A stretch of 64,000 bases of DNA from Omnitrophica WOR_2 bacterium RIFOXYA2_FULL_38_17 (GCA_001805965.1 MHHG01000052.1:13930-77929); one strand, 5' to 3'; shown: positions 12,904 through 58,849, numbered from the stretch's first letter. Program-made: numbers and translations. Notes: a model not told the origin generated them from the letters alone.

Positions 12904-13134
12904 GTGGATATTAAGGAACGGTTAAATAAGGTTTTCAAAGATGTTTTTGATGATGATTCTCTTGAAATTAATGAAACGATGACAGCAGAAGATGTGGATA
13001 TGTGGGATTCTCTTATGCATATTACGCTTATTGTTGCCATTGAGAGAGAATTTGGTATAAAATTTAATACTTCAGATGTTAATTCTTTAGAAAATGTTGG
13101 AAGTTTAATTGAAAAAATAAAAGAACGTTCTTAG
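12904..13134 (+). CDS. Acyl/peptidyl carrier protein (DltC/ACP-like)
   Basis: 76 aa; GTG start after an AAAGGGG RBS; DMWDSLMHITLI phosphopantetheine-attachment Ser motif in a 4-helix ACP-sized protein. Confidence 0.8.
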   Translation: MDIKERLNKVFKDVFDDDSLEINETMTAEDVDMWDSLMHITLIVAIEREFGIKFNTSDVNSLENVGSLIEKIKERS

Positions 13135-13184
13135 ATTGGTTTTAGGGGTAATAGTAACTAAGAACGGTTTATAAAAAATATTGT

Positions 13185-14930: not shown

Positions 14931-14958
14931 AGGGATCCTGAATATTGGAAGGAAAAAT

Positions 14959-40802: not shown

Positions 40803-41599
40803 GTAAATGCTTAAATGGATTATATTGTATTCATCTTGAATTAACTAGTAGGTGTAATAAGAATTGTTGGATGTGTGGTCGTCGTAAAATTGATAGAGAG
40901 TACCCTGAAATTGCTGCTAATTATGGTGAAATGGACTTTGAGTTGGTTAAGAAAATTTCTGAACAGGTGCCGGAGGACATAGTTGTTCAGTTTCATAATA
41001 ATGGTGAACCGCTTTTATATCCAAAGTTTGGAGAGGTAGTAAAGTTATTTGAAAATCAAATAAAATGTATGGATACAAATGCCAAGCTTATTATTGAACG
41101 GGCTGATGAAATAATTGATAGCATTGATACTATTACCATTTCAATATTTGAAAATGATCCTGAAGGGGATGAGCAATTTGAACTAGTCAAGGAATTTATA
41201 AAAATTAAAGGTGATAGAAAGCCAAATATTGTATTTAGATGTATGGGTGATGTTGGCGTGGAAAAATGGAAAGAATTAGGAGGTATTATCGCAACGAGAA
41301 CATTGCATAATCCTTTGGGAAGTTTTGAGTATAGAAAGTCTCCAACGGTTCCTGAAATAGGAATATGTTTAGAAATTTTGAACCATATGGCTATTGATAG
41401 GTTTGGGAAAGTTTCAATATGTGTTCGGTTTGACCCTCAGCGTGTGGGAGTTATTGGAGATGCGAATATTGATTCGCTATATGATATTTGGAATGGTGAA
41501 AAGAGAAAAGAGTGGGTTGAGTATCATAAGCAAGGAAAGAGGGACAAAATACCTCTGTGTAGTAAATGTGATTTTTGGGGAGTAGCTACTAGTTCTTGA
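40799..41599 (+). CDS. Radical SAM enzyme with C-terminal Cys-rich (SPASM/twitch-like) region
   Basis: ELTSRCNKNCWMCGRR (CxxxCxxC) plus C-terminal CVRF...CSKCDFWG cysteines. Confidence 0.7.
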   Translation: MSKCLNGLYCIHLELTSRCNKNCWMCGRRKIDREYPEIAANYGEMDFELVKKISEQVPEDIVVQFHNNGEPLLYPKFGEVVKLFENQIKCMDTNAKLIIERADEIIDSIDTITISIFENDPEGDEQFELVKEFIKIKGDRKPNIVFRCMGDVGVEKWKELGGIIATRTLHNPLGSFEYRKSPTVPEIGICLEILNHMAIDRFGKVSICVRFDPQRVGVIGDANIDSLYDIWNGEKRKEWVEYHKQGKRDKIPLCSKCDFWGVATSS

Positions 41600-42565: not shown

Positions 42566-43957
42566 ATGAAAATTTTATTTGTCGTGTATGATAATGGATC
42601 TTATATTCATAGTTTTCCTATTGGGATTGCATATCTTGCATCGGCTCTTCGAAAAAATAATCATGAAGTTGTCATTTATAATCAAGATATTCATCATTAT
42701 AAAGATGAGGGTTTAACTAGGTATTTAGATGAAAATGATTTTGATGTTGTTGGTATAGGTGTTATTGCAGGATACTATCAGTATAGAAAACTTCTAAAAA
42801 TTTCTGAAGCAATCAATACTTCTTCTAATCGGCCTAAACATTATGTTTTGGGAGGCCATGGTCCGACGCCTGATCCAGAATATTTTCTTAATATAACAGG
42901 TGCAGATATTGTTGTTATGGGTGAAGGTGAAGTTGCTTTTCTGAATTTGCTAAAAGCTATTGAGTGTAAGGAAGCTTTGAACAATGTGTTGGGCATAGCT
43001 TTTAAGGAAGAAGATAAGATAATTATTAATCCTAGACAGCCTCTTATTGAAGATATTGATACTATTGAGTGGCCAGCATATGATATGTTTGCTATTGATC
43101 ATTATAGGTTGACTCGTTCGCCAAATTCAACAAATGAAGATTTTTCTATGCCGATTCTTTCTGCGCGAGGTTGTACTTTTAAATGTAATTTTTGTTATCG
43201 TATGGATGAAGGCTATCGGACAAGAAAGCCTGAAGCAATTATTGAGGAAATTCAATATCTTCGAGAGAATTATGGGATTAACTATATAGAATTTATGGAT
43301 GAGCTTCTTATGTCTTCTAAACAACGCATCATTGAAGTTTGTGAAGCGATTATAAAATCGAAGTTAAAATTTAAATGGTATTGCAATGGGAGATTAAATT
43401 ATGCTAAAGCTGAAGAGTTGAAGCTAATGAAAAAGGCTGGATGCGTTTTTATCAATTATGGTATTGAAGCTTTTGATGATGATGTTTTGAGGAAAATGAA
43501 CAAATCTTTATCTACGACTCAGATAGAAGAAGGGATTGTGGCTACTTTGAAAGAACGAATCAGCCCAGGTTTTAATATAATTTTCGGACATATTGGAGAT
43601 ACCAAAGAGACGTTAAACAAAGGTGTGGAGTTTTTATTAAAATATGACGATGGTGCCCAAATGAGAACAATTAGGCCTGTAACACCATATCCAGGATCAC
43701 CACTATACTATCATGCCATTGAGAAAGGGTTGCTTAAGGATTGTGAAGATTTTTATGAGAATAAGCATTCTAATTCTGATTTATTGGCAGTTAATTTTAC
43801 AGATATGACAGACAATGAATTTCATGAAAGCCTTTTTGAGGCGAATAGCCGTTTGCTAGAAAATTATTTTCGAAACAAGAAGAAAAGTGTTATTCAACAA
43901 GCAAGGGAATTGTATCTTGATCATAATGTTAATTTTAGAGGATTTAGGCAGACTTAA
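42566..43957 (+). CDS. B12-binding-domain radical SAM enzyme (class B)
   Basis: N-terminal B12-binding Rossmann-like region, ILSARGCTFKCNFCY. Confidence 0.85.
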   Translation: MKILFVVYDNGSYIHSFPIGIAYLASALRKNNHEVVIYNQDIHHYKDEGLTRYLDENDFDVVGIGVIAGYYQYRKLLKISEAINTSSNRPKHYVLGGHGPTPDPEYFLNITGADIVVMGEGEVAFLNLLKAIECKEALNNVLGIAFKEEDKIIINPRQPLIEDIDTIEWPAYDMFAIDHYRLTRSPNSTNEDFSMPILSARGCTFKCNFCYRMDEGYRTRKPEAIIEEIQYLRENYGINYIEFMDELLMSSKQRIIEVCEAIIKSKLKFKWYCNGRLNYAKAEELKLMKKAGCVFINYGIEAFDDDVLRKMNKSLSTTQIEEGIVATLKERISPGFNIIFGHIGDTKETLNKGVEFLLKYDDGAQMRTIRPVTPYPGSPLYYHAIEKGLLKDCEDFYENKHSNSDLLAVNFTDMTDNEFHESLFEANSRLLENYFRNKKKSVIQQARELYLDHNVNFRGFRQT

Positions 43958-43971
43958 GGATGGTATTTTAA

Positions 43972-45861
43972 ATGAATTTGATTTTAATAGAAAATGACCA
44001 AAGCATAGATAAAGTCATATCTCATCCAGAATATGTTCAAGGAAGAGACGTGATTTTATGTTTTTGTTATCTTTCATATTGGTATTTAAAGAATCAGAGC
44101 GACAAACATATTTGCGTATTTAATGATGACCTTTTTTTTAAAGAGGATTATGATTGTATGCATTCTGAGACAGAAAGATTTGCTTCGACTTGGTTCTACC
44201 AAGATGGTGCGGATGTAACATTGTTTAATAATGTCTCTTTTGGCGATTTGATAAAACCAGCTATTGGAAGAACATATATGTCTCATATTTTAGTTAAATA
44301 TGGTGAAGCTATTCGTAAATCTGTAGAAAAGTGGGGCAAAATCAATTGTATTTATTATGATTTTACAAATAAAAGTAATTACTTTAACTATCTTCAAAAC
44401 GATGGTGGTAGATTTTTCAATAAAAAAAGACTTGTTGAATGTGTTGCTAAACAATTAAATATAAAGACTTCAGAAATTATAACAGATAAGGTGTTGCCGA
44501 CTCCATATCTTCATGAGAAAGTTTGCATAGATTTTAACGGGAAGCTCCAAGAAAACAAAAAAGATCTACGTGGCACGATATGTTATTTTGCAAAATTGAT
44601 TCATAATGCTATAAGCCGTTTTCTATCTTTGTTTAATGGTACATTTAATGCAGGGAAAGTTTACTTTTTTAACTATTACAACATTAATAGTTTTGTACAA
44701 CATCACGCCAAAGATCTTGTGATCCCAAATTTTGGATTAAAGGATCATTTGAAAACGCTTTTCTCAGGATTGACATTTGCAGACATTGATGATGAGAAAT
44801 ATGAATTAGATAAGCCTGAGAATAGTTATCTGAAATTTATTCGGGATAGATTGTTGGATGAGGGTGTTGTTCGATCTGATTGTGACTTTGTATTCAATGG
44901 TATTGATTATTCTTCGATTTATGAGCCTGCTTTAAAGAACTTTGTCGAATGTCTTATTCCTTTTTATTTAGCGCATATGGTTAAGGTTAGGAATTTTCTC
45001 AAGAGGATGAGAGTTGCAAAGTTAGTTGTGAATGATATCACAGACGAGAAAAATGGTGTTATTATTGCAGCATGTCGACAATCCAATGTAAAAGTTTATT
45101 TTGTTGATCATGGAATCAAAGCATGGAGATCGGCGTATCCTTTACCATTTGTTGCTCCTGATGTTTATTTTGAAGCAAGTACTAGACCCTTTTACGAAAT
45201 GCCATTATTGCCCGAACCGCTTGGAACGCCTATTATGGATCAGCATGCTGAAAGACCAAGAAAGAAGGTTTCTAGGATAAAAAAAATTCTTTTTTTGACT
45301 TTTGCTGATAGTCATTATGCAAGATTAGATAGGTTAGCTTATAGGGGTAAATATTATGCAGAAATATTTTCTGTATTCAAAGGCTTGTCAGAGATGGGTA
45401 TGGAACTTTATTATAGGACTCATAGTGAAAATCAAGCTTATCATGATTATATGTTTGATCTTTTTGATGTAGATAGGACAACTTTTAAATTAAAGCATGG
45501 AGGTAGATTTTGTGATGTTATACGAGAGATGGATTTAATGGTGTGTAATTTTACTACATGTTTTTTTGAAGCTCAAGCTTCAGGTATTCCTACGATATTT
45601 CTTGAGCCGCATGTTATTATGGATGCTCTTCAGATGCCTTTGAGTGGAGAGCATATGAAAGATGTTATTCGTGTGTCAACTGGCAAAGATTTGATGAATA
45701 TTGTTAAACGTAATAAGGATAATCCTGCTGAATTAAATAAGTTTCTGGATGCTTTCATTGAAACAAATGGTGTCCCTTATATTGGAAATCTAGATGGAAA
45801 GGCAAGTGAGAGAATTTCTGATTATATATTTAATGATAAAGTAAGGAATCTTTCTGAATAA
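43972..45861 (+). CDS. Large uncharacterized protein with GT-B/TagF-like C-terminal half (putative glycosyl- or glycerophospho-transferase)
   Basis: 629 aa; C-terminal KKILFLTFADSHY...YYRTHSEN...ASGIPTIFLEPH resembles the donor-binding half of TagF/KpsS-like GT-B enzymes (HP motif). Confidence 0.4.
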   Translation: MNLILIENDQSIDKVISHPEYVQGRDVILCFCYLSYWYLKNQSDKHICVFNDDLFFKEDYDCMHSETERFASTWFYQDGADVTLFNNVSFGDLIKPAIGRTYMSHILVKYGEAIRKSVEKWGKINCIYYDFTNKSNYFNYLQNDGGRFFNKKRLVECVAKQLNIKTSEIITDKVLPTPYLHEKVCIDFNGKLQENKKDLRGTICYFAKLIHNAISRFLSLFNGTFNAGKVYFFNYYNINSFVQHHAKDLVIPNFGLKDHLKTLFSGLTFADIDDEKYELDKPENSYLKFIRDRLLDEGVVRSDCDFVFNGIDYSSIYEPALKNFVECLIPFYLAHMVKVRNFLKRMRVAKLVVNDITDEKNGVIIAACRQSNVKVYFVDHGIKAWRSAYPLPFVAPDVYFEASTRPFYEMPLLPEPLGTPIMDQHAERPRKKVSRIKKILFLTFADSHYARLDRLAYRGKYYAEIFSVFKGLSEMGMELYYRTHSENQAYHDYMFDLFDVDRTTFKLKHGGRFCDVIREMDLMVCNFTTCFFEAQASGIPTIFLEPHVIMDALQMPLSGEHMKDVIRVSTGKDLMNIVKRNKDNPAELNKFLDAFIETNGVPYIGNLDGKASERISDYIFNDKVRNLSE

Positions 45862-45903
45862 AATCTAATATTGAATTTTGTATCAAACAAGAAATAACTT
45901 ATT

Positions 45904-46899
45904 ATGGAAAACAAAAAAACAGTTTTTGAAGAAAAAAGATCAAAAAGAACATTTGCGGATTGGTCAAATTTAAAGCCTCCTTTTCCAAAAGAAGTATTTA
46001 TGGATGTTACAAGTTATTGTAATTATGAATGCATTTTTTGTAGCAATAAAAAATTATCAGATAAATGTCATCTAGATAAAGAGTTAGCATTTAGGATAAT
46101 TGATGAGTGTTCAGAGAATGGTACGGAAGATATGGCAATGTATGCGACAGGAGAACCTTTTATGCGTAATGATTTGCATGAATTTGTTGCATATGCCAAA
46201 AGTAAGAATATTAAGTATGTTTTTTTAGGAACAAATGGGTCTTTAGCAACGGCTCAAAGGGCTAAGGCGGTACTTGATGCTGGTTTGGATAGCATAAAGT
46301 TTTCTATTAATGCAGGCACGAGAGAATCTTATCACAAAGTTCATGGTCGTGATGATTTTGAAAAAGTGATTGAAAATGTGAAATGGATTCACAACTACAG
46401 AAAAGAATCAGGATTAAAATTTGGAATGTATGTGAGCATGGTGCCTACCCATTTAACCGAAGGAGAAATTCCTGTTTTAGAAAAAGTAATTGGTCCTTAT
46501 GTTGACTTAATAAATAATAGAGGATGTTCAAATCAAGGTGGCAATATGTATGAGAACAATTTCAATGCCAAGGTAGATAAGGATAATTTGTTGGGGAGCT
46601 TAACTACAGAAAAACACTGCGGGAAATGTCCCGATTTATTTCAGCGAACGGTTGTTACCCCACAGGGATATTTGTCTGCTTGTGTAGTTGATTATAGAAA
46701 TTATTTATGTGTTGCCGACTTGCATGAAGTTACGATTAAAGAGGCTTGGCATGATGATGTTTATGTTGATTTGCGAAGAAAGCATGTTGAAGGGAAACTG
46801 TCTAGATTGATGTGTAACAATTGCCTCAATAATGTTAATGAGCAAGCGGAGCCGCTTGTGGAAAAATATTCCTTGTCTTATAAAAACGAAAAGAAATAA
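45904..46899 (+). CDS. Radical SAM/SPASM-domain enzyme
   Basis: MDVTSYCNYECIFCSN CxxxCxxC; C-terminal CGKCP...CVVD...CNNC auxiliary-cluster cysteines. Confidence 0.75.
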   Translation: MENKKTVFEEKRSKRTFADWSNLKPPFPKEVFMDVTSYCNYECIFCSNKKLSDKCHLDKELAFRIIDECSENGTEDMAMYATGEPFMRNDLHEFVAYAKSKNIKYVFLGTNGSLATAQRAKAVLDAGLDSIKFSINAGTRESYHKVHGRDDFEKVIENVKWIHNYRKESGLKFGMYVSMVPTHLTEGEIPVLEKVIGPYVDLINNRGCSNQGGNMYENNFNAKVDKDNLLGSLTTEKHCGKCPDLFQRTVVTPQGYLSACVVDYRNYLCVADLHEVTIKEAWHDDVYVDLRRKHVEGKLSRLMCNNCLNNVNEQAEPLVEKYSLSYKNEKK

Positions 46900-46900
46900 C

Positions 46901-47992
46901 ATGAATAAACAATTTAAAAAGAATTTACTTGAGTTAAAGCGTTATCGGACTTCAACTGGTCGAGATATTGAAGGAGGTCTCTGTCTTGACAGAAATGAAA
47001 GAGTTTCTAAATTTGCAAAGAAAATTATGGATGAAGCCCTCGATAGCATTACAAGCTCTGTATTGAGTTGTTATCCAGACCCAGGTGAATTATACAAAGC
47101 CTTGTCGTCTTTTTTGTCTGTTTCCCAAAATTGTATATATCTTACAAATGGAATTACAGAAGGAATCCGGGTAGCTTTTGAGACTCTGACAAGCCCGGGA
47201 GATGAGGTTATTATTGTTGAGCCTACGTATCCTATGTATAGGGTTTATTCAGATATTTATCAAACAAAATTTATTCCGATCAAATTTACACAAGAGTTGC
47301 ACCTAGAATATGAAAAAATTGAATCTATGATCACGAAGAAGACAGCTTTTGTTTGCATTCCTAATCCTAATTTACCTATTGAGAGCTACTTATCATTAAA
47401 GATCATTAAGGATATTGCCAAGAAATGTCAAAAGCATGATGTAATGTTTTTTGTTGATGAAGCTTATGCGTTTCTAGGTGGGGAAAGTGCGATTTCATTG
47501 ATTGATGATTTTGAAAATTTGGTTGTTTTTCAAACCATGTCAAAGGCGTTTGGCTTAGCTGGTGTGCGTCTGGGATGGATGGTCTCAAACCAAAAGAATA
47601 TTGATTATTTTTCTAAAACACGAGCATTGGTTGAATCTAATGGTGTGACCTTGGTAGTGGCCAAATATATGATAGAAAATATCGATATTTTGAAAGAATA
47701 TGTTTCTGATCTCAAACAAGGATTGACATATTTACGCCGAGAGTTAACTACGCTAGGAATTAAATCTTTTGGTGGAGATTATACTAATTCTACACTTTTA
47801 TTTATGGATAATGAAGATGATGCGAATAGTGCTTTGGAGTATTTGCGAGAAAGAAAAATCTATGTTCGTGCCTCTTTCAAGGAGCCTTTTAATAATTGTT
47901 TGAGAATTACTTTAGGTCCAAGGGACAGTATGAAGAAGTTTTTGAAATATTTTAATGAGTGGTTGCAAAATAATAGGATGGAGACTGAATGA
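46901..47992 (+). CDS. Class I/II PLP aminotransferase (HisC/CobD-like)
   Basis: FQTMSKAFGLAGVRLGWMV (SKxxGxxGxRxG PLP-Lys motif). Start set to the ATG at 46901 to remove overlap with the upstream gene. Confidence 0.75.
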   Translation: MNKQFKKNLLELKRYRTSTGRDIEGGLCLDRNERVSKFAKKIMDEALDSITSSVLSCYPDPGELYKALSSFLSVSQNCIYLTNGITEGIRVAFETLTSPGDEVIIVEPTYPMYRVYSDIYQTKFIPIKFTQELHLEYEKIESMITKKTAFVCIPNPNLPIESYLSLKIIKDIAKKCQKHDVMFFVDEAYAFLGGESAISLIDDFENLVVFQTMSKAFGLAGVRLGWMVSNQKNIDYFSKTRALVESNGVTLVVAKYMIENIDILKEYVSDLKQGLTYLRRELTTLGIKSFGGDYTNSTLLFMDNEDDANSALEYLRERKIYVRASFKEPFNNCLRITLGPRDSMKKFLKYFNEWLQNNRMETE

Positions 47993-48984
47993 ATAAATTG
48001 ACATGTCCAAGTTGTAAATCTGCTGATTGTCGTTTTCTTGATGATTATCGATATTTTAAGTCTGAAGACCGCAAATATCTTGGGGATATGAAAGTTTATC
48101 AGTGTCAGAGTTGTAGTCTTGGGTTCAACAGCCCGATGCCCGATAAGGCGGCATTAGATCTTTATTTTAAAATTGTTTATCGTCAATCGAATCGACCGCA
48201 TTTTAAAAAAGATCCACGAAAAGCAGAAATTTTGTTATGGCAGAAAGCTCAGTATGCCTACATGTCTCAATTTTGTGATTTTGATAAACTTCAATCGATT
48301 GCAGATTATGGCGCAGGATACGGCATGTTATTGCGAGAAATAAAACTTCACCATCCTGATATTAAAATGTCAGCATATGATCCTGATGTGCAAAGTCTTG
48401 AGTATTTGAAGTCTTTTGATATTGAAACATATGATCTTTTTAAGTGTTTGGATTCTGCAGAGAGTAAGAATAAATATGATTTAATTATTGCTTCGGGCAG
48501 TATTATGTATGATTCTAATCCACACTGCTTCTTTGATTTTGCAAATAAAAATTTATCAGAAAAGGGAAAGGTTTTTTTAGAAGTGCCCAATCATGTGTTT
48601 TCTGATGATTCGTATACAAAAAGACCATATGATGGTCCAGTAATGTTTTATTTTTCGATAGATTCGTTAAAAAAACTTGTGGATGTTAATAATTTGGAAT
48701 TGGAACACATAACAACTGCAAGCACGGAACTTGATGATGCATTACAATATAGATTGAATCAGTATAATGCTTTTAATCAAAAAGAAGAATCCTTTATTGC
48801 TAAGATTATGAAAGGTTTTAAATCAAAATTGAAGATGATGATACCTAAACGCATTAAAAAAGCAATAAAAGCTTTACTTTATGATGAAGACTTGGATATT
48901 GCTAAGAAATTGGCACCATTTGAGTATGGTGGGAAGCGATGGACAATACGATGTATTATTACAAGGAATTTGAAAAGTGAATAA
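47989..48984 (+). CDS. Class I SAM methyltransferase with N-terminal Zn-ribbon (paralog of the 41621 gene)
   Basis: CPSCKS...CQSCSLGF ribbon; DYGAGYGMLL motif I. Confidence 0.65.
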   Translation: MNKLTCPSCKSADCRFLDDYRYFKSEDRKYLGDMKVYQCQSCSLGFNSPMPDKAALDLYFKIVYRQSNRPHFKKDPRKAEILLWQKAQYAYMSQFCDFDKLQSIADYGAGYGMLLREIKLHHPDIKMSAYDPDVQSLEYLKSFDIETYDLFKCLDSAESKNKYDLIIASGSIMYDSNPHCFFDFANKNLSEKGKVFLEVPNHVFSDDSYTKRPYDGPVMFYFSIDSLKKLVDVNNLELEHITTASTELDDALQYRLNQYNAFNQKEESFIAKIMKGFKSKLKMMIPKRIKKAIKALLYDEDLDIAKKLAPFEYGGKRWTIRCIITRNLKSE

Positions 48985-51166
48985 AGATATAAAAAAAGAA
49001 ATACTGTGTACGATTGGGCCTGCATCAAGGAATGAAAAGGTTATTAAGCGTCTTGAAGATTTGGGAGTTACATTGTTTAGAATAAATTTGTCTCACACTA
49101 GTATTGATGATTTGGCCGAAGTTATTGAATTTATTCAAAAGCTTACAACAGTCCCAATCTGTTTGGACACAGAGGGTGCTCAAGTACGAACAGGCAAATT
49201 AAAAGAAACCTCTCTTAATGTTAACATAGGACAGTTGATACAGATTCCGTTTGAGCAGATTGTTGGTGATGAAACAAAATTTAATTTTTATCCAGCTGAT
49301 ATAGCAAAGAAATGTCAGGTAGGTGATATTATTAGTATTGATTTTAACTCTGTATTAATTCAGGTTATTGAACAAGGAGAGAAGGCGTTAACTGCGCGTG
49401 TTATAACAGGTGGAAAGCTTGGACAAAATAAGGCTGTTAGTATTGACCGTGAAATTGCTATGACAGCATTAACAGAAAAGGATCTAAACAGTATAGAAAT
49501 TGGTTTAAAGATGGGGATTAATCATTTTGCCCTTTCTTTTGCAAATAAGGGTGAAGATGTGAAGTTGATTAGATCTCTTGTTGGGAAGAATAAGTTTATA
49601 ATTTCAAAGATTGAATCCTGTCAAGGGGTAAACAATTTGGAGGCGATAGCGAAGCAATCGGATGCGATCCTTATAGACCGGGGGGATTTATCCCGTCAAA
49701 TTCCTATTGAACAGGTGCCAAGAGTTCAGAAGGAGATAGGACAAAGGATAAAGCATTTTGAAACAAAATTTTATATTGCTACGAATTTGCTTGAAACTAT
49801 GATTGAATCTTCTGTTCCAACTCGGGCAGAAGTAAATGATGTTTTTAATTCTTTAGTTGATGGGGTTGACGGTCTTGTTTTAGCAGCAGAGACTGCTATC
49901 GGAAAATATCCAATTGAAAGTGCAGTTATGATTTCGAAGATGATTGCTGAGTATGGAGAATTTAAGAAGGGACGTAGCTTTAGTTCAGAGGAATTACACC
50001 GAAAAGGATCTTTGTTTTTGGTTGAACCTCATGGTGGAGTTTTGGTTGAGCGCTTTTCTAAAGATAACTTAGGCAAAATTCAGGAGATGCGTAAATTAAT
50101 CGTTAGCCATGAAGATATTATAAATGCAGAGCAAATTGCAGTAGGATCATTTTCCCCTTTGGAGGGTTTTATGGGTAAGGAGGAGCTGGAAAGTGTTTTA
50201 AAGGATATGCGCCTTCCTGGTGGATTAGTATGGCCGCTACCGATTCTACTTCAAATTAAAGATGAAAAAGCAAAAGATTTAAAAGTAGGTAAAAGTTTTG
50301 CTTTATGTGTAGAGGGTGAAGAAGATGTTTATGCGGTTTTGCATTTGGATGAAATATTTAATTATGATTTAGATAAAATCGCAACTGAAGTATTTCATAC
50401 GACTGAGGAAGCTCACCCTGGGGTTAGAAAGTTAATGCACAATGGGAATTGTTTTTTAGGTGGGAAAATTGATTTGGTAAAAAGATTTCCTTCTTCTTTA
50501 AAATATTTTGAGTTGACCCCTAAGCAGACTAGGTTGATTTTTGAGAATAAGGGTTGGAGTCGGATCGTTGGATTTCATACGCGAAATGTTGTACATAGGG
50601 CTCATGAATTTATTCAATTGGAGGCGTTTGAAAGGTTACATTGTGATGGCCTTTTTATTCATCCTTTGGTGGGGCCTAAAAAGAGTGGTGATTTTAATCC
50701 AGATATTATTTGTAAGTGTTATGACTTAATGGTTAGCCAGTTTTATCCAAAAGGAAAAGTTCTTTTGGGTGCATTTCAAAATTATCCTCGTTATTCTGGG
50801 CCAAGGGAAGCTGTTTTTACAGCTATTTGCCGAAAGAATTTTGGATGTTCTCATTTTATTGTTGGGCGGGATCATTCTGGCGTAGGTAATTATTATCAAA
50901 AAGATGGCGCGCATAAATTGTTCGATGAGCTTGGTTACATAGGTATTAAGCCTATATATTTTAATGAGGTTCATTATTGTTTGAAGTGTGATCAATATGT
51001 TGAGAGTTGTTCTCATTCAGAAAGTAATATTCTTCAAATAAGTGGTACCCAATGTCGGGAAATGTTTAAAAAAAGTAAAATTCCTCCAGCATGGTTTATG
51101 AGGGAAGAAATCTCTAGAATGATTATAAGTGATATTAATGATGGTAAGGAAGTATTTGTGGAATGA
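48977..51166 (+). CDS. Fusion protein: N-terminal pyruvate-kinase barrel domain joined to C-terminal sulfate adenylyltransferase (ATP sulfurylase)
   Basis: N-terminal ~340 aa carries PK signatures (ILCTIGPAS, LFRINLSH, ICLDTEGAQVRTG, IISKIESCQGVNNLEAI, ILIDRGDLS, LVLAAETAIGKYP). The C-terminus carries ATP-sulfurylase signatures (GFHTRNVVHRAHEFIQ, HPLVGPKKSGD, GRDHSGVG). GTG start. Confidence 0.8.
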   Translation: MNKDIKKEILCTIGPASRNEKVIKRLEDLGVTLFRINLSHTSIDDLAEVIEFIQKLTTVPICLDTEGAQVRTGKLKETSLNVNIGQLIQIPFEQIVGDETKFNFYPADIAKKCQVGDIISIDFNSVLIQVIEQGEKALTARVITGGKLGQNKAVSIDREIAMTALTEKDLNSIEIGLKMGINHFALSFANKGEDVKLIRSLVGKNKFIISKIESCQGVNNLEAIAKQSDAILIDRGDLSRQIPIEQVPRVQKEIGQRIKHFETKFYIATNLLETMIESSVPTRAEVNDVFNSLVDGVDGLVLAAETAIGKYPIESAVMISKMIAEYGEFKKGRSFSSEELHRKGSLFLVEPHGGVLVERFSKDNLGKIQEMRKLIVSHEDIINAEQIAVGSFSPLEGFMGKEELESVLKDMRLPGGLVWPLPILLQIKDEKAKDLKVGKSFALCVEGEEDVYAVLHLDEIFNYDLDKIATEVFHTTEEAHPGVRKLMHNGNCFLGGKIDLVKRFPSSLKYFELTPKQTRLIFENKGWSRIVGFHTRNVVHRAHEFIQLEAFERLHCDGLFIHPLVGPKKSGDFNPDIICKCYDLMVSQFYPKGKVLLGAFQNYPRYSGPREAVFTAICRKNFGCSHFIVGRDHSGVGNYYQKDGAHKLFDELGYIGIKPIYFNEVHYCLKCDQYVESCSHSESNILQISGTQCREMFKKSKIPPAWFMREEISRMIISDINDGKEVFVE

Positions 51167-51702
51167 AAAGCGCGTTGATATTTTGGTTTAGTGGATTGTC
51201 TGGTTCGGGAAAAACAACAATAGCCCAAACAGTAAAAGTATTACTTGAGAAAGAAGGGCGTTCAGTTTTAATTTTAGATGGCGATGATGTAAGGGAGAGA
51301 TTCCATAAAAATTTGGGGTTTAACGTAGAAGATATAAAAGAGAATAATCGTTTGATCTCTGAGCTGTGTCACGAAAATAAGGATTTGTTTGATATAATTT
51401 TGGTTCCGATCATTTCTCCTTATAAAGAATCCAGGGAAAAGGCAAGAGAGTTATTAAATAATAAATTTTATGAAGTTTATGTTTCGGCGTCGCTTAAAAC
51501 AGTTATTGCTCGTGATACTAAAGGATTATATGCAAAAGCAGCTTCTGGATTGATAGATAATTTGATTGGTTACTCGAAGAATACAATATATGAAGAACCT
51601 AAGGATGCTGATCTTGTTATTAATTCAAATTATCAGAGTGTTGAGCAGTCAGTTAAAATGCTATACGAATTTGTTATTAAACAATTAAAGATTTTAAGTT
51701 GA
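51163..51702 (+). CDS. cysC: Adenylyl-sulfate (APS) kinase
   Basis: IFWFSGLSGSGKTTIA P-loop in the APS-kinase context, 179 aa, translationally coupled to the sulfurylase. Confidence 0.88.
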   Translation: MKSALIFWFSGLSGSGKTTIAQTVKVLLEKEGRSVLILDGDDVRERFHKNLGFNVEDIKENNRLISELCHENKDLFDIILVPIISPYKESREKARELLNNKFYEVYVSASLKTVIARDTKGLYAKAASGLIDNLIGYSKNTIYEEPKDADLVINSNYQSVEQSVKMLYEFVIKQLKILS

Positions 51703-52883
51703 AAACACTCGGTATATTTATGAAAGACTATAAAAAGTTAATGGATGTTTTGCTGCAGTTGCCAGCTTGTTCCCTCATTACAACAGGTAGAACTGGTTCT
51801 GATTTCTTACAAAGTTTATTTGATTCCCATGAACAAGTGCTTACTTATAATGGGGACTTTTTGTTTCATCAGTTTTGGAAAGAATCACTTTGTGTATCAT
51901 CTGGAAAATTTGATTTGAATGATCTTATTGCAGAATTTATTGGCAAGCATATTGAAACGCTTAAATCAAAATATGATTTGTTTGAACGAAAACATGAACT
52001 GGGAGAAGAAGGTGATCAAAGTATTGATATTGATTTAGAATTGTTTAGAGTACACATTGTTGGTTTGATTAGTGATAGAGAAGTTAATTCAAAGAATATT
52101 TTATTAGCGGTTAATGGTGCATATGCTTTGTGTTTAGGACAGGATTTACTTAATAAAAAGTTATTCTTACATCATAATCATCATTCTTCTAGCCTAAAAA
52201 GTTATTTAGTTGATTTTCCTGATAGCAAGATTATTTGTATGACGCGAGATCCTAGGGCTAATTTTGTGTCAGGTATTACACATTGGGCAAAGCATGACAA
52301 AGATAGTGATAGAGGAGCACATCTTTATTTTTATATTGAGAGGATATTGCTTGATGCACAATTTTTAAATGAATTTAAGAATGATTCAAGGGTGATCAAA
52401 ATCGAAGAGCTTGGAGAGAAAATAGTTTTGGAGAAATTATGTGATTGGTTAGGCGTTGAGTATAGTGAAACTCTTGAAGAATCAACTTGGGGAGGAATGC
52501 TTTGGAAGGGAGATAAGCTCTCAACGAGAAAGAAGGAAGGGCGAGGGTTTTCTGCAAATATTTTAAAAAATAATTGGAATGAAAAATTAAGTTTTATTGA
52601 TAAGTATATTTTTAATTTTATTACGAATAAAAGGTTAAAATATTATGGATATCAAGTGCGTCCTATTAGAAAAATAGATTATTTTTTGGTTCCAATTCTT
52701 ATATTCTTGCCGTTAAGGTTTGAATTGAGATATTTTAAACTGTCATATTTGTTAAATAATAGGACTCTTTTTCTTAGTAATTTATATTATTTTGTGAAGA
52801 GGATTGGCCTTTTCTTGAAATATTACATTCGAGAAATTAAATCTCACGATTACTTAAGTAAAAAATTAAGATTAAATAATTGA
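51699..52883 (+). CDS. Putative PAPS-dependent sulfotransferase
   Basis: N-terminal ITTGRTGSDFLQSLF resembles the 5'-phosphosulfate-binding loop of sulfotransferases; genomic context (sat-cysC immediately upstream). Confidence 0.45.
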   Translation: MKTLGIFMKDYKKLMDVLLQLPACSLITTGRTGSDFLQSLFDSHEQVLTYNGDFLFHQFWKESLCVSSGKFDLNDLIAEFIGKHIETLKSKYDLFERKHELGEEGDQSIDIDLELFRVHIVGLISDREVNSKNILLAVNGAYALCLGQDLLNKKLFLHHNHHSSSLKSYLVDFPDSKIICMTRDPRANFVSGITHWAKHDKDSDRGAHLYFYIERILLDAQFLNEFKNDSRVIKIEELGEKIVLEKLCDWLGVEYSETLEESTWGGMLWKGDKLSTRKKEGRGFSANILKNNWNEKLSFIDKYIFNFITNKRLKYYGYQVRPIRKIDYFLVPILIFLPLRFELRYFKLSYLLNNRTLFLSNLYYFVKRIGLFLKYYIREIKSHDYLSKKLRLNN

Positions 52884-52907
52884 AGTCTTTCTAGGAGGGA
52901 ATAGAGC

Positions 52908-53819
52908 GTGAAAGAAGTTTTTATATCTACATCAACTTTTGCCAAGTATTCAAAAGAACCTATCGATTTGTTAGAAAGAGAGGGTTATAAAGTTAGTCTC
53001 AACCCTACCGGACAAAAAATGACGACTGATGATATTATGAAATACGGCAAGGATGCAGTGGGCCTGATCGCTGGAACAGAAAAATTAAATGCGGATGTGT
53101 TAAAAGCGCTTCCTAATCTTAAAGTTATTTCAAGATGTGGTGTTGGTTTGGATAATGTTGATTTGAATGCTGCTGAAGACTTAAATATTTGGGTTGTTAA
53201 TACACCTGACGGGCCAACACTTGCTGTTGCGGAATTGACTATAGGATTAATATTAAGCCTTATAAGAAATGTTGTGTGGATGGATAAAGACATTCGAAAG
53301 GGAATTTGGAAAAAGAGAATGGGTAACTTGCTTTTTAATAAGCGAGTTGGGGTGATTGGGTGTGGAAGAATTGGTCGAAAGGTTGTTGAATTATTGAAAG
53401 TGTTTAACTGTGAGATTTCTTATTCTGATCCTTATGTCGATTGTGAAATCCTTGGGCTGAAGAAAATGGATTTAGAAGAATTATTGAAATGGTCAGATCT
53501 TGTAACAATACATTCCTCTGGAAGCAGTGTCTTAATTAATGAGAAGCAACTGGATTTAATGAAAAAAGGAGCATGGATCGTAAGTGTGGCACGTGGTGGT
53601 GTTGTCGATCAAAGAGCCCTTTATGAATCATTGCGAAGCGGATACTTGGGTGGTGCGGCTTTAGATGTTTTTGATGAAGAACCATATAGTGGTATGTTGA
53701 AGCACTTAGATAATGTTATCTTGACGCCTCATGTTGGGTCTTATGCAAAAGAGGCGAGAGTAAAAATGGAAATAGAATCAGCAGTAAATTTAATTAATAA
53801 GCTTAAAGACTGTTTATAA
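52908..53819 (+). CDS. D-isomer-specific 2-hydroxyacid dehydrogenase (glycerate/phosphoglycerate-dehydrogenase-like)
   Basis: GVIGCGRIGRKV NAD-binding motif, catalytic R/E/H region (SVARGGVVD...TPHVGS). Confidence 0.8.
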   Translation: MKEVFISTSTFAKYSKEPIDLLEREGYKVSLNPTGQKMTTDDIMKYGKDAVGLIAGTEKLNADVLKALPNLKVISRCGVGLDNVDLNAAEDLNIWVVNTPDGPTLAVAELTIGLILSLIRNVVWMDKDIRKGIWKKRMGNLLFNKRVGVIGCGRIGRKVVELLKVFNCEISYSDPYVDCEILGLKKMDLEELLKWSDLVTIHSSGSSVLINEKQLDLMKKGAWIVSVARGGVVDQRALYESLRSGYLGGAALDVFDEEPYSGMLKHLDNVILTPHVGSYAKEARVKMEIESAVNLINKLKDCL

Positions 53820-53834
53820 TAGGAGGTCAAATAT

Positions 53835-54275: not shown

Positions 54276-54279
54276 AAAA

Positions 54280-55763: not shown

Positions 55764-55779
55764 TAGAGAGGGATGTTTT

Positions 55780-56424: not shown

Positions 56425-56441
56425 GAAGATCTGGAGGAAAT

Positions 56442-57341
56442 ATGTCAAAAAAAGTTATGGTTTTTGGTGGCTCAGGATTTTTGGGAAGCCATGTAGCTGA
56501 TTGTTTAGTAGAGAAAGGTTATGATGTGTCGATCTATGATATTAAAAAATCTTCTTATTTGACTGAAGGTCAAAAGATGATAGTTGGCGATGTAACAGAT
56601 TATGATAAAGTGATCGAGGTGCTTAAGGGGTTTGATATTGTTTATAATTTTTCTGGAATAGCAGATATTCAGGAGGCTAGTGAAAACCCACTGAATGTTG
56701 TTAAGTTAAATATTTTGGGGAATACGAATATTCTTGAAGCTTGTCGTATTAACAAAGTCAAACGGTTTATTTTTGCAAGTAGCCTTTATGTTTATGGCAA
56801 TCTGGGGTCATTTTATAGAAGCAGCAAGCAGGCTTGTGAATTAATAATTGAGGATTATCAAAAGAAATTTGGATTAGATTTTATTATCTTGCGATATGGT
56901 TCTTTGTATGGTGACAGGGCGACGGGTTTTAATCCATTAAGAGATTTTATTGAACAAGCAATTAAAAAGGGAAAGATTATAAGAAAAGGTAATGGAGAAG
57001 AGATTAGGGAATATATTAATGTTGTCGATGCTGCAAGAAGTAGTGTTGAAGTAATAGAACGGGGTTTTAAAAATGAATATATGATGATATCAGGTAATCA
57101 ATCTATGAAAATTAAAGATATGTTGGAAATGATTAAAGAAATGATGAAGGGTAAAATAAAGATTGAATATAATACACCTGCCCTGGCTGACGAACACTAT
57201 GGAATAACTCCGTATTATTTTCAGCCTAAAGTGGCAAAAAAATATGTGTTGGATAGTTATTATGACCTAGGAGAAGGAATCCTGAGCCTTATTTATAAAA
57301 CACATGAAGAGTTGTTGAATGAAAGAGAGAATGGATATTAA
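56442..57341 (+). CDS. NAD-dependent sugar epimerase/dehydratase
   Basis: VMVFGGSGFLGSHV Rossmann motif; YxxxK (YRSSKQACE). Confidence 0.78.
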   Translation: MSKKVMVFGGSGFLGSHVADCLVEKGYDVSIYDIKKSSYLTEGQKMIVGDVTDYDKVIEVLKGFDIVYNFSGIADIQEASENPLNVVKLNILGNTNILEACRINKVKRFIFASSLYVYGNLGSFYRSSKQACELIIEDYQKKFGLDFIILRYGSLYGDRATGFNPLRDFIEQAIKKGKIIRKGNGEEIREYINVVDAARSSVEVIERGFKNEYMMISGNQSMKIKDMLEMIKEMMKGKIKIEYNTPALADEHYGITPYYFQPKVAKKYVLDSYYDLGEGILSLIYKTHEELLNERENGY

Positions 57342-58849
57342 TGAGAATACTGCTTGTATATTCCTCTTTGTATAAAGTTACCGGTTTGCCGCTTGGTGTT
57401 GCATCTTTAAATGCAATTCTTAAAAATAATGGACATGAAGTTTCAATATTTGAAACCACATTTTATTGTATAGATGAGTCTTCGGTAGAGATTCGTGACA
57501 GAGAAAATCGGTTGATGGCAAAAAAAGTCAGTAATGAAGATGAGCATTTAGGTACGGACCACTCGAGTAATATATTTGATGATTTAAAATTACGTTTATC
57601 AGAATTCAAACCTGATATGATGGGGATTTCTATTTTTGAATCGACTTATTTGCTGAGTAAAAAATTATTTGCTGTAGCAAAAGAAAATATTCCGTCAATA
57701 ATTACTATTGCTGGAGGGACATTCCCGATGTTGGCACCAGAAGTGGTTGTTGATGATAAAAATGTCGATATAGTCTGTGTCGGGGAAGGAGAAAATTCGC
57801 TGTTAGAATTATGTGATGCTATTGACGGTAACCTGGATTTTAGTCATATCCAAGGGATGTGGATTAAATCAAATGGTTCAATTATTAAAAATAGTATTGC
57901 TTCAATTCCTGATATAAACAAGCTGCCACCACCTGATTATACAGGTTTTGACTCTCGTTTATTTTATAAACCAATGCAAGGTAAGTATTATAAGATGGTC
58001 AATATTGAGACTTCACGTGGCTGTCCCTACAATTGTTCATACTGTGCATCACCCGCATTTAAATCAAAATATAAGAAGATAGACGGGTGTTCATATTTTC
58101 GTACTCTGAATATTGACAAAATTATGTCTCAGATATATTGCCAAATTGATATTCATAATCCTGAATTTGTTTATTTTTCAAGCGAAACGTTTTTAGCAAT
58201 GCCAGAAAGTGATTTTGAAGTTTTTATTAAAGAATATAAGAAAGTTAACCTGCCATTTTGGTTTCAGACTCGGTTTGAAACAATAACCGAAGAAAAAATA
58301 AAAAAGTTGCAGGAGGTAGGATTGTATTGGATGACACTTGGTGTTGAACATGGAAATGAAGAGTTTAGAAAAAAAGTTCTCAACCGCCATTATAAAAACC
58401 AAATAGTAGAAGCTGGTATGCATGTATTGAATAATTGTGGAGTGGGAACAACATTAAACAATATGGCTGGATTTCCGTTTGAAACCCGGGAATTAGTTTT
58501 TGATACCATTAATCTGAACAAGAAGTTGCTATCTATAAATCCACTAATTGAAACAAATTTATATATATTCGCTCCTTTTCGAGGGTGTGCACTATATGAT
58601 TTATGTGTTTCGGAAGGTTTTCTCGATAAAACGGACTTTATTAACAGTACTGATCTAAGCGATGAATCATTATTGAAATTTTCGGATGAATTTAAACAAG
58701 ATTTGAAGGGATTACTCAAAACTTTTAACCTGTACGTACGTTTAAATGAAGAATATTACCCGCGTATCAGGATTGCTGAAAAGGATGATGAAGAAGGTAA
58801 GCAAGCGCATAACGAACTTATGCAAATTGTAATGCAGCAGTCTAGGTAA
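57341..58849 (+). CDS. B12-binding-domain radical SAM enzyme (class B)
   Basis: IETSRGCPYNCSYCASP plus an N-terminal B12-binding-like Rossmann segment. Confidence 0.85.
   Translation: MRILLVYSSLYKVTGLPLGVASLNAILKNNGHEVSIFETTFYCIDESSVEIRDRENRLMAKKVSNEDEHLGTDHSSNIFDDLKLRLSEFKPDMMGISIFESTYLLSKKLFAVAKENIPSIITIAGGTFPMLAPEVVVDDKNVDIVCVGEGENSLLELCDAIDGNLDFSHIQGMWIKSNGSIIKNSIASIPDINKLPPPDYTGFDSRLFYKPMQGKYYKMVNIETSRGCPYNCSYCASPAFKSKYKKIDGCSYFRTLNIDKIMSQIYCQIDIHNPEFVYFSSETFLAMPESDFEVFIKEYKKVNLPFWFQTRFETITEEKIKKLQEVGLYWMTLGVEHGNEEFRKKVLNRHYKNQIVEAGMHVLNNCGVGTTLNNMAGFPFETRELVFDTINLNKKLLSINPLIETNLYIFAPFRGCALYDLCVSEGFLDKTDFINSTDLSDESLLKFSDEFKQDLKGLLKTFNLYVRLNEEYYPRIRIAEKDDEEGKQAHNELMQIVMQQSR

What the first reader, a model, noticed from the sequence alone, without database searches (positions are those of the whole stretch)
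48977..51166. Pyruvate-kinase barrel domain fused in-frame to ATP sulfurylase
The N-terminal ~340 residues carry a near-complete set of pyruvate-kinase catalytic-barrel signatures but no PK C-terminal regulatory domain. The remainder is an unmistakable sulfate adenylyltransferase. ATP sulfurylase catalyses a strongly unfavourable reaction normally pulled by pyrophosphatase, APS kinase or a GTPase partner (CysN). A PEP-driven ATP-regenerating domain fused to it would be a distinct solution. Alternatively the PK-like domain may use PEP for a different chemistry. I do not know of this architecture being described.
Basis: seen in the sequence. Interest (0 to 1): 0.75.

Follow-up and report, generated by a model that had tools for sequence, protein, structure and literature searches.

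The report
Pyruvate-kinase barrel fused to ATP sulfurylase
A real, widespread but apparently undescribed bacterial enzyme joins the catalytic part of the glycolytic enzyme pyruvate kinase to the first enzyme of "active sulfate" (PAPS) synthesis, most likely as a built-in ATP-recycling unit for sulfating cell-surface sugars.

Summary
Window 48977-51166 (+) is one uninterrupted 729-aa ORF: pyruvate-kinase A+B barrel (no C-terminal regulatory domain), PUA-like domain, ATP-sulfurylase domain. It is translationally coupled to an APS kinase and a sulfotransferase inside a nonulosonic-acid glycan island of an Omnitrophota MAG.

It is not an artefact. More than 120 protein clusters and 80 further metagenome loci encode the same single ORF. 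So do two cultured rhizobia (Ensifer adhaerens, Sinorhizobium chiapasense).

All PK catalytic and metal ligands are invariant. The PK domain nevertheless forms a distinct subfamily with fixed substitutions next to the active site, and the Sat half has HxRN in place of QxRN.

The same PK subfamily also occurs as PK-Sat-APS kinase triple fusions (about 70 clusters, mostly Patescibacteria), as PK-APS kinase fusions, and as stand-alone barrels beside an APS kinase.

Best reading, inferred and not assayed: a PEP-driven module converts the ADP made by APS kinase back to ATP. This mirrors the PK/PEP regeneration needed for PAPS synthesis in vitro.

I found no paper describing it. I rate it a new variant of a known kind (Sat fusion enzymes), of moderate-to-high interest.

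The parts
48977..51166 (+). PK-Sat fusion gene, 729 aa, GTG start
   Evidence: Single ORF. Three Pfam domains. Identical ORF in NCBI MAG contig. More than 200 homologues share the architecture.
48992..49921 (+). Pyruvate-kinase barrel (A domain plus B-domain lid), residues 6-315. Catalytic residues are R35, N37, S39, H40, D64, T65, R71, K152, K211, E213, D237, T269, E305.
   Evidence: PF00224 at 230.9 bits over the full profile. PDB PK hits up to 198 bits. Residues invariant in 118 sequences. AF2 model pLDDT about 90.
49190..49471 (+). PK B-domain (beta-rich lid), approximately residues 72-165, including the conserved N151-K152 nucleotide-phosphate contact
   Evidence: Continuous alignment to PK structures. 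Beta-strand run in the AF2 model. K152 is conserved in 115/118 sequences.
49952..50023 (+). Poorly conserved linker (about residues 326-349) that takes the place of the PK C-terminal regulatory domain
   Evidence: No Pfam hit. Low conservation in the A1 consensus. pLDDT 63-67 in this region.
50024..50482 (+). PUA-like N-terminal domain of ATP sulfurylase, residues 350-502
   Evidence: PF14306, E 5.4e-43. Aligns to 8a8d and 1v47.
50507..51127 (+). ATP-sulfurylase catalytic domain, residues 511-717. Motifs: F-H534-T-R-N (variant of QxRN), H540-x-x-H543, G-R-D-H633.
   Evidence: PF01747, E 1.6e-74. NF003166 and TIGR00339 above cut-off. 8a8d 313 bits and TMt 0.93. H534 conservation.
51163..51702 (+). 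APS kinase (CysC), 179 aa, start overlaps the fusion's stop by 4 nt. It is the ADP-producing partner.
   Evidence: PF01583, E 4.8e-45. TIGR00455 at 166.1 bits against a cut-off of 138.7.
51699..52883 (+). Sulfotransferase-family protein, 394 aa, 4-nt overlap with cysC. Presumed consumer of PAPS.
   Evidence: Sulfotransfer_3 at 28.5 bits (cut-off 27) and Sulfotransfer_1 at 23.9 bits (cut-off 22). Sulfotransferases adjoin the fusion in relatives.
47989..48984 (+). Upstream methyltransferase whose stop overlaps the fusion's start by 8 nt (same operon)

Best explanation
The protein is a two-enzyme module for making activated sulfate (PAPS) for glycan sulfation.

The C-terminal half is a working ATP sulfurylase (ATP + sulfate -> APS + PPi). 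The gene that follows encodes APS kinase (APS + ATP -> PAPS + ADP), and the next gene encodes a sulfotransferase that spends the PAPS on a nonulosonic-acid-type surface glycan.

The N-terminal half is a catalytically competent, non-allosteric pyruvate kinase (A+B domains only). It uses PEP to convert the ADP released by APS kinase back into ATP on the spot. This has three effects:
(i) it removes ADP, which traps APS kinase in a dead-end E-ADP-APS complex and also binds the Sat active site like APS;
(ii) it keeps the local ATP/ADP ratio high for the two ATP-consuming steps;
(iii) it changes the net stoichiometry to sulfate + ATP + PEP -> PAPS + PPi + pyruvate.

Shown here: the architecture, the conservation of catalytic residues, and the gene linkage. 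Inferred: the PK activity itself, the use of ADP as acceptor, and any channelling between active sites.
For: (1) All PK residues that bind PEP, Mg2+, K+ and the nucleotide phosphates are invariant across 118 fusion proteins of about 50-60% identity, and across 70 triple fusions. The Ensifer copy is identical at all 31 checked positions.

(2) The Sat half passes curated Sat thresholds and superposes on solved Sat with TMt 0.93.

(3) Gene fusion and neighbourhood evidence ties the PK subfamily to the PAPS pathway and to the ADP-producing step:
- PK-Sat followed by cysC in the window, L001, L002/L003, L007 and L095, and in a different gene order in L006.
- About 70 clusters of PK-Sat-CysC triple fusions.
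- PK-CysC fusions without Sat: P0142, P0237, P0298, P0376.
- A stand-alone PK-like barrel 3 nt upstream of cysC, with no Sat within 7 kb (L094).

(4) In 36 loci with at least 3 kb on both flanks, 35 have a CysC or sulfotransferase homologue nearby. CysC is present in 28 and is fused or within 400 bp in 22.

(5) Published biochemistry. APS kinases form a dead-end E-ADP-APS complex, and ADP binds Sat almost like APS (PMC3734648). In vitro, PAPSS1 made almost no PAPS without a PK/PEP ATP-regeneration module and made it well with one (PMC9885120).

(6) pTM 0.81 for the 729-aa model suggests a defined arrangement of the two halves rather than beads on a string.
Against: No activity has been measured for any member.

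The PK domain carries invariant or near-invariant substitutions next to the active site relative to canonical PK. In rabbit numbering these are K114->E, P116->A/S, E117->Q, A292->D, G297->S, Q328->N and G362->A. The Sat half has a fixed Q->H change in its sulfate-binding QxRN motif. These could mean altered substrate specificity or chemistry.

Sat itself does not make ADP, so fusion to Sat rather than to CysC is not the most direct wiring. Eight of the 36 well-flanked loci have no CysC within 6 kb.

Cells already have bulk ATP regeneration, so the selective advantage of a local PK is an argument from in vitro kinetics.

Coordinates of the model were not available, so distances between active sites could not be measured.
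Confidence: 0.6

Rival explanations
1. The PK-like domain is catalytic but has diverged in specificity or chemistry. Possibilities include PEP-dependent phosphorylation of an acceptor other than ADP (another nucleotide, or an intermediate of the sulfation pathway). Another is tight, CysN-GTPase-like energetic coupling, in which PEP cleavage drives APS/PAPS formation within a complex rather than through free ADP/ATP.
For: The PK subfamily has a fixed signature next to the active site (E66, Q69, D234, S239, N270, A304) that separates it from canonical PKs, which only appear at about 200 bits in the representative search. The Sat active-site Q->H change co-occurs with it: 49/50 representatives, 75/75 loci and 70/70 triple fusions, whereas the plain Sat has Q. 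Some loci have a sulfotransferase but no CysC within 6 kb. The subfamily also has other fusion partners, namely CBS, a nucleotide pyrophosphatase/phosphodiesterase, and unannotated tails.
Against: Every residue known to contact PEP, the two cations and the nucleotide phosphates in canonical PK is retained, including P15, H40, R71 and K152 of the nucleotide site. CysC is still encoded beside or within most members, so the PK domain does not replace it. PK-CysC fusions without Sat argue against a mechanism that requires the Sat active site.
Confidence: 0.22
2. The PK-like domain is a non-catalytic scaffold or sensor. It might provide an oligomerisation platform through the PK A-A interface, or act as a PEP/ADP-binding regulatory domain that tunes Sat activity to the energy or carbon state.
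For: Loss of the PK C-domain removes the usual tetramer and allosteric interface. Sat enzymes are known to carry regulatory, APS-kinase-like pseudo-domains in fungi (PMC4220642). One relative fuses the PK barrel to a CBS domain, a typical ligand sensor.
Against: Strict invariance of the complete catalytic set (acid/base Lys, both Mg2+ ligands, all four K+ ligands, the proton-relay Thr/Glu) over sequences that are only 40-60% identical overall is not expected for a pseudo-enzyme.
Confidence: 0.08
3. The fusion is an assembly, sequencing or gene-calling artefact, and in reality two separate genes exist.
For: The deposited annotation of the identical NCBI contig lists only a 384-aa Sat (OGX23564.1 and others) and no gene over the PK part.
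Against: That contig's DNA is 100% identical to the window and contains the same uninterrupted 729-aa ORF, so the deposited annotation is an under-call. The single ORF recurs in more than 200 independent assemblies from many phyla, and in complete genomes of cultured Ensifer and Sinorhizobium.
Confidence: 0.01
4. The PK domain serves the glycan pathway rather than sulfate activation, for example by balancing PEP and pyruvate for the PEP-consuming NeuB-type nonulosonate synthases in the same island.
For: Two NeuB homologues and a full Pse/Leg-like gene set are in the window. NeuB, PseB, PseC or CMP-synthase homologues occur near many relatives.
Against: A PK consumes PEP and so would compete with NeuB. 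The fusion partners are always Sat and/or CysC, never NeuB. The fusion also occurs in clusters without NeuB, such as Ensifer L095 and L010.
Confidence: 0.03

Closest known systems
Bifunctional PAPS synthases and Sat-APS kinase fusions (metazoan PAPSS1/2, fungal Sat-APK, Aquifex aeolicus Sat-APK)
   Same: Sat of the same fold and family sits on one polypeptide with another enzyme of the PAPS pathway. Relatives of the window protein also carry a C-terminal APS kinase in the same order as Aquifex and fungi.
   Different: None of these has a PK domain (PMC4220642). In the window itself, APS kinase is a separate, translationally coupled gene.
APK-Sat-pyrophosphatase triple fusions of diatoms, haptophytes and Phytophthora
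   Same: The logic is the same. A helper enzyme that removes a by-product of sulfate activation is fused to Sat to drive an unfavourable pathway forward (PMC4220642).
   Different: There the helper removes PPi, the Sat by-product. Here it would remove ADP, the APS-kinase by-product, and regenerate ATP from PEP. The fold, domain order and taxa (eukaryotes versus bacteria/CPR/DPANN) all differ.
CysDN / NodPQ GTPase-coupled sulfate activation, including CysN-CysC (NodQ) fusions
   Same: A dedicated, often cluster-encoded PAPS supply for glycan sulfation (for example rhizobial Nod factor) that spends a second high-energy compound to drive sulfate activation. The energy-coupling domain can be fused to APS kinase. 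This comparison rests on established knowledge, not on a test made here.
   Different: There is no sequence relationship. CysD is a PP-loop ATP pyrophosphatase-type sulfurylase and CysN is an EF-Tu-like GTPase with direct conformational coupling. Here a Sat-type sulfurylase is joined to a PK barrel, and coupling is presumably through ADP/ATP.
Canonical pyruvate kinase (EC 2.7.1.40)
   Same: A-domain TIM barrel plus B lid, with the full catalytic and cation-ligand set.
   Different: It lacks the C-terminal allosteric/tetramerisation domain and scores below the TIGR01064 equivalog cut-off. It has a fixed subfamily signature: DTEG[AS]Q[IV]R instead of DTKGPEIR, DRGDLS instead of ARGDLG, ATNLL instead of ATQML, and [AS]AETA instead of SGETA.
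Engineered PK/PEP ATP-regeneration modules used for enzymatic PAPS synthesis
   Same: The proposed chemistry is identical: PK + PEP recycles the ADP from APS kinase, relieves the E-ADP-APS dead-end complex, and is needed for good PAPS yield (PMC9885120).
   Different: That is an artificial mixture of separate commercial enzymes. Here the module is natural and genetically fused.

Membership tests
Pyruvate kinase (PF00224 / TIGR01064, EC 2.7.1.40) | A-domain (beta/alpha)8 barrel with inserted B-domain lid | tested here: met
   PF00224 at 230.9 bits, profile 3-327 of 328. Aligns over about 320 residues to PK structures. AF2 pLDDT about 90.
Pyruvate kinase (PF00224 / TIGR01064, EC 2.7.1.40) | Catalytic and cation ligands (rabbit R72, N74, S76, D112, T113, R119, K206, K269, E271, D295, T327, E363) | tested here: met
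   Query R35, N37, S39, D64, T65, R71, K152, K211, E213, D237, T269, E305. These are invariant or nearly so in 118 + 111 homologues.
Pyruvate kinase (PF00224 / TIGR01064, EC 2.7.1.40) | C-terminal alpha/beta regulatory/tetramerisation domain, and full-length equivalog score | tested here: not met
   No C-domain hit. PK homology ends at about residue 330 and Sat begins at about 350. TIGR01064 scores 279.1, below its cut-off of 306.4.
Pyruvate kinase (PF00224 / TIGR01064, EC 2.7.1.40) | Canonical motifs DTKGPEIR, ARGDLG, ATQML, SGETA | tested here: not met
   The family-wide motifs are DTEG[AS]Q[IV]R, DRGDLS, ATNLL and [AS]AETA.
Pyruvate kinase (PF00224 / TIGR01064, EC 2.7.1.40) | Catalyses PEP + ADP -> pyruvate + ATP | not testable with these tools
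   Needs an enzyme assay.
Sulfate adenylyltransferase, Sat type (TIGR00339 / NF003166, EC 2.7.7.4) | Curated family score, with PUA-like plus catalytic domains | tested here: met
   NF003166 409.5 > 387 and TIGR00339 339.5 > 322.95. PF14306 + PF01747. 8a8d at 313 bits and TMt 0.93.
Sulfate adenylyltransferase, Sat type (TIGR00339 / NF003166, EC 2.7.7.4) | Active-site motifs HxxH and GRD | tested here: met
   H540-R-A-H543 and G630-R-D-H633 are conserved in at least 114/118 sequences.
Sulfate adenylyltransferase, Sat type (TIGR00339 / NF003166, EC 2.7.7.4) | QxRN sulfate/phosphosulfate-binding motif | tested here: inconclusive
   R and N are kept, but Q is replaced by H (FHTRN) in essentially all fusion proteins. 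The plain Sat of L004 and the solved Sats have Q. The functional effect is unknown.
Bifunctional PAPS synthase (Sat + APS kinase on one chain) | APS kinase domain on the same polypeptide | tested here: not met
   In the window CysC is a separate gene (51163..51702) overlapping by 4 nt. It is met only in relatives, namely the triple fusions of 905-933 aa.
CysDN/NodPQ GTP-coupled sulfate activation | CysD-type sulfurylase subunit plus EF-Tu-like GTPase subunit | tested here: not met
   No such domains occur in the fusion or its neighbours. The resemblance is functional only.

The most novel reading that the evidence does not exclude
The PK-like barrel and the HxRN-type Sat have co-evolved into a new kind of PEP-coupled sulfate-activating machine. 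In this reading PEP cleavage is mechanistically coupled to APS/PAPS formation, or the barrel phosphorylates a non-ADP acceptor. That would make it a third solution to the thermodynamic problem of sulfate activation, beside PPi hydrolysis and the CysN GTPase. The fixed substitutions next to the active site in both halves would be the signature of that new chemistry.
Probability: 0.15. Interest if true: 0.85.

Novelty: new variant of a known kind. Interest (0 to 1): 0.62.

Why it matters
Sulfate activation is one of the most unfavourable reactions of central metabolism. The known biological ways of driving it are pyrophosphatase, APS kinase or APS reductase pull, and the CysN GTPase.

A natural fusion that recruits a glycolytic PEP-dependent kinase into the PAPS pathway would add a further strategy. 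It would also be a natural counterpart of the PK/PEP regeneration module that biotechnologists must add to make PAPS in vitro. A single-chain PK-Sat-CysC enzyme could be directly useful for enzymatic sulfation of glycosaminoglycans and drugs.

The fusion also marks a widespread, unstudied capacity for glycan sulfation. It occurs in Omnitrophota, Nitrospinota, Marinimicrobia, Chloroflexota, rhizobia, and genome-reduced Patescibacteria and DPANN archaea.

Finally, it shows that current annotation either hides the PK half or mislabels the protein as 'pyruvate kinase'. The latter could corrupt metabolic reconstructions of glycolysis in MAGs.

Tried and rejected
- Genome-contig scan with the single protein. 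The back-translated patterns were too specific and returned only two ordinary Sat loci (L004, L005).
- Foldseek against afdb50 was unavailable, so UniProt/AFDB names for the architecture could not be listed.
- Contexts of two stand-alone PK-like barrels lay on contigs of about 2 kb and were uninformative (L008 beside a sulfatase-family gene; L093 beside dapB).
- Six literature searches for the fusion gave nothing relevant. In the hits, pyruvate kinase appears only as a coupling enzyme in assays.
- I first considered that the fusion is an adaptation of energy-limited anaerobes, since the window has NrdD and many hosts are Omnitrophota or CPR. I dropped this as a general explanation because aerobic, cultured Ensifer and Sinorhizobium carry an identical-signature copy.
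- I considered that the 384-aa NCBI gene model indicated a genuine split. This was rejected after comparing the DNA.
- Model coordinates are not exposed, so active-site distances and channelling geometry could not be examined.
- The large ORFs of the island that have no Pfam hit were tested for homology with similar-sized unannotated neighbours in relatives. None was found.
Full report
**1. The observation**

The window contains a single ORF at 48977..51166 on the + strand. It is 729 aa long and starts with GTG. An AAGGA motif lies about 10 nt upstream. The ORF overlaps the upstream methyltransferase gene by 8 nt and the downstream gene by 4 nt.

Pfam gives three domains:
- PK barrel PF00224 at residues 6-315. 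It covers profile positions 3-327 of 328, with E 2.7e-68.
- PUA_2 at residues 350-502.
- ATP-sulfurylase PF01747 at residues 511-717, with E 1.6e-74.

No PK C-terminal domain is present.

NCBIfam places the C-terminal half above the curated Sat cut-offs (NF003166 409.5 vs 387; TIGR00339 339.5 vs 322.95). The PK equivalog is hit strongly but below its cut-off (279.1 vs 306.4), as expected without the C domain.

Against solved structures, the N-terminal half aligns over about 320 residues to many pyruvate kinases, at up to 198 bits. The C-terminal half aligns end to end with the Methanothermococcus thermolithotrophicus ATP sulfurylase at 313 bits.

An AlphaFold2 model built on 59 homologues is confident, with mean pLDDT 89.6 and pTM 0.81. 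By Foldseek, no PDB chain covers both halves (TMq <= 0.49). Each half matches its own family, with Sat at TMt 0.93.

**2. Not an artefact**

The window's 90% cluster does contain NCBI proteins of only 384 aa, the Sat half alone, from 'Omnitrophica WOR_2 bacterium GWF2_38_59'. That record leaves about 1 kb without a called gene.

However, that contig (GCA_001806045.1, MHHK01000003.1) is 100% identical to window 44012-57166 over 13,155 bp. It contains the same intact 729-aa ORF. The deposited annotation is therefore an under-call. This also identifies the window as Omnitrophota.

Independent support for a single ORF:
- At least 120 clusters at 51-62% identity and about 100% coverage have the same three Pfam domains.
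- A metagenome scan found at least 549 relatives, and the best 80 loci all have PK and Sat in one ORF.
- Complete replicons of cultured Ensifer adhaerens and Sinorhizobium chiapasense encode it at 45-46% identity and 99% coverage.

**3. Catalytic residues and family signatures**

In 118 aligned fusion proteins the residues equivalent to the PK catalytic and ligand set are invariant or nearly so. These are R35, N37, S39, H40, D64, T65, R71, K152, S187, K211, E213, D237, T269 and E305. The mapping to the canonical set rests on established PK structural knowledge. The domain is therefore not a degenerate relic.

It is, however, a distinct subfamily. The motifs differ from canonical PK as follows:

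| Canonical PK | This subfamily |
|---|---|
| DTKGPEIR | DTEG[AS]Q[IV]R |
| ARGDLG | DRGDLS |
| ATQML | ATNLL |
| SGETA | [AS]AETA |

A phmmer search of the PK domain against 1.84 billion representatives returned this subfamily throughout the top 150. Canonical PKs of 470-480 aa appeared only at about 200 bits.

The Sat half has its own fixed change. The QxRN motif reads HxRN in 117/118 homologues, 49/50 representatives, 75/75 metagenome loci and 70/70 triple fusions. A plain Sat (L004) and the solved Sats have Q.

**4. Context**

The fusion gene is followed by two translationally coupled genes:
- an APS kinase at 51163..51702 (TIGR00455 166 bits vs a cut-off of 138.7);
- a sulfotransferase-family gene at 51699..52883.

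The surrounding 40 kb is a nonulosonic-acid-type glycan island. It contains:
- PseB- and PseC-like genes, two NeuB homologues and a CMP-sugar synthetase-like gene;
- aminotransferases and methyltransferases;
- several B12-binding and SPASM radical-SAM enzymes;
- a 2-hydroxyacid dehydrogenase;
- an FkbH-like protein and an MBOAT.

In relatives, the trio of PK-Sat, CysC and sulfotransferase recurs in varied order inside glycan clusters.

Counts were made on the 36 metagenome loci with at least 3 kb on both flanks:

| Feature nearby | Loci |
|---|---|
| CysC or sulfotransferase homologue | 35/36 |
| CysC | 28/36 |
| CysC fused or within 400 bp | 22/36 |
| Sulfotransferase | 23/36 |

My iterated sulfotransferase HMM is of limited sensitivity and could drift.

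**5. Other architectures of the same PK subfamily**

- PK-Sat-CysC triple fusions of 905-933 aa. There are about 70 clusters, mostly Patescibacteria/CPR lineages plus a Woesearchaeota archaeon.
- PK-CysC fusions without Sat, in polysaccharide clusters. One has a sulfotransferase 2 kb away.
- A stand-alone 338-aa barrel 3 nt upstream of an APS kinase, with no Sat within 7 kb.
- Rarer forms with a CBS domain, an N-terminal nucleotide pyrophosphatase/phosphodiesterase domain, or unannotated tails.

The non-Sat forms have PK-Sat proteins as their nearest neighbours, at up to 67% identity in the PK domain. Fusion and fission therefore happened repeatedly within one pathway-dedicated lineage.

**6. 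Mechanism**

Sat produces PPi, not ADP, so a PK cannot pull the Sat step directly. The ADP comes from APS kinase.

Published work supports a role for ADP removal:
- APS kinases are trapped in a dead-end E-ADP-APS complex, and ADP occupies the Sat site much as APS does (PMC3734648).
- In vitro PAPS synthesis by PAPSS1 virtually fails without a PK/PEP ATP-regeneration module (PMC9885120).

The most economical model is that the barrel is a constitutive, non-allosteric PEP:ADP phosphotransferase. It would recycle ADP to ATP beside the two ATP-consuming enzymes. The net reaction becomes sulfate + ATP + PEP -> PAPS + PPi + pyruvate.

I give this model about 0.6. It is inferred from conservation, fusion and neighbourhood patterns, and literature kinetics. 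No activity has been shown.

The main rival, at about 0.2, is that the conserved active-site signatures in both halves reflect a changed acceptor or a tighter, CysN-like coupling. A pseudo-enzyme or scaffold role is unlikely given the invariance of the catalytic set. An artefact is excluded.

**7. Comparison with the known**

A review of ATP-sulfurylase diversity lists APS kinase (N- or C-terminal), pyrophosphatase and APS reductase as fusion partners. PK is not among them (PMC4220642).

Six full-text searches found no description of a PK-Sat or PK-APS kinase fusion. The library is incomplete, so prior mention elsewhere cannot be excluded.

Databases hold the proteins under generic names: 'sulfate adenylyltransferase', 'pyruvate kinase', 'adenylyl-sulfate kinase' or 'hypothetical protein'.

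The protein is a member of the Sat family, with a variant QxRN motif. It fails membership of canonical PK on two defining features, the C domain and the canonical motifs, although it very probably works like a PK. Functionally it parallels the Sat-PPase fusions and the GTPase-coupled CysDN/NodPQ systems.

I classify it as a new variant of a known kind.

**8. Verdict**

Interest is 0.62. The finding is real and widespread, has a testable and biotechnologically relevant mechanism, and occurs in tractable hosts (Ensifer, Sinorhizobium). It remains an elaboration of known fusion logic unless the signature substitutions turn out to encode new chemistry.

Noticed in passing
L012 4966..7155 (= window 48977..51166); NCBI GCA_001806045.1 MHHK01000003.1: The deposited annotation of the identical public contig calls only a 384-aa Sat (OGX23564.1, OGX48297.1, OGX59634.1, OGX60027.1) and leaves the 1-kb PK-coding part without a gene, although the 729-aa ORF is intact. 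Elsewhere JGI labels the whole fusion 'pyruvate kinase', which could create false glycolysis calls in MAG reconstructions.
   Followed up: yes
window 34011..35924, 43972..45861, 58856..60616 (+); also 24296..25441 and 14959..16053: Three large ORFs (637, 629 and 586 aa) and two smaller ones in the glycan island have no Pfam match even at E <= 1. They may be glycosyltransferases or transferases for the modified nonulosonate. Large unannotated neighbours in relatives (L001 1..1922, L002 12714..14861, L006 6817..8862) are homologous to each other but not to the window's ORFs.
   Followed up: partly
window 19146..20747, 42566..43957, 57341..58849, 60623..62185 (B12-binding radical SAM); 40799..41599, 45904..46899 (radical SAM-SPASM): The sugar-modification island has an unusual density of radical-SAM enzymes: four B12-binding and two SPASM type, together with several methyltransferases. 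This suggests extensive C-methylation or other radical tailoring of the glycan.
   Followed up: no
window 13185..14930 (+), 16244..17668 (-), 52908..53819 (+): An FkbH-like protein (glyceryl-carrier loading family), an MBOAT O-acyltransferase and a D-2-hydroxyacid dehydrogenase lie in or near the island. They hint at glycerate- or lactate-type acyl decorations in addition to sulfate.
   Followed up: no
P0270 (1151 aa), P0130 (478 aa), P0126/P0140/P0154/P0161/P0231/P0255: Other architectures of the same PK subfamily: nucleotide pyrophosphatase/phosphodiesterase (PF01663)-PK-PUA-Sat; PK-CBS; and PK with 160-300-aa C-terminal tails that have no Pfam match. The PF01663 domain might deal with PPi or PAP.
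   Followed up: partly
P0299-P0367; L066, L077, L080, L092: PK-Sat-CysC single-chain 'PAPS synthases' of about 905-933 aa are common in genome-reduced Patescibacteria/CPR lineages and occur in a Woesearchaeota archaeon. This implies that these minimal organisms invest in sulfation of some surface or secreted molecule.
   Followed up: partly
L095 11820..13076 and 13113..15250 (Ensifer adhaerens pCTYH.Ch1_1): In Ensifer the PK-Sat and cysC pair is followed by a Na+/H+-exchanger-family transporter, a PqqD-like/P-loop protein and an NTP_transf_5 protein. A Wzy_C-type protein and a LuxR-family regulator lie upstream. No recognisable sulfotransferase was identified among the ORFs scanned.
   Followed up: partly
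window 238..2394 (+): An anaerobic ribonucleotide reductase (NrdD with ATP-cone) indicates an anaerobic or facultative lifestyle for the host Omnitrophota bacterium.
   Followed up: no
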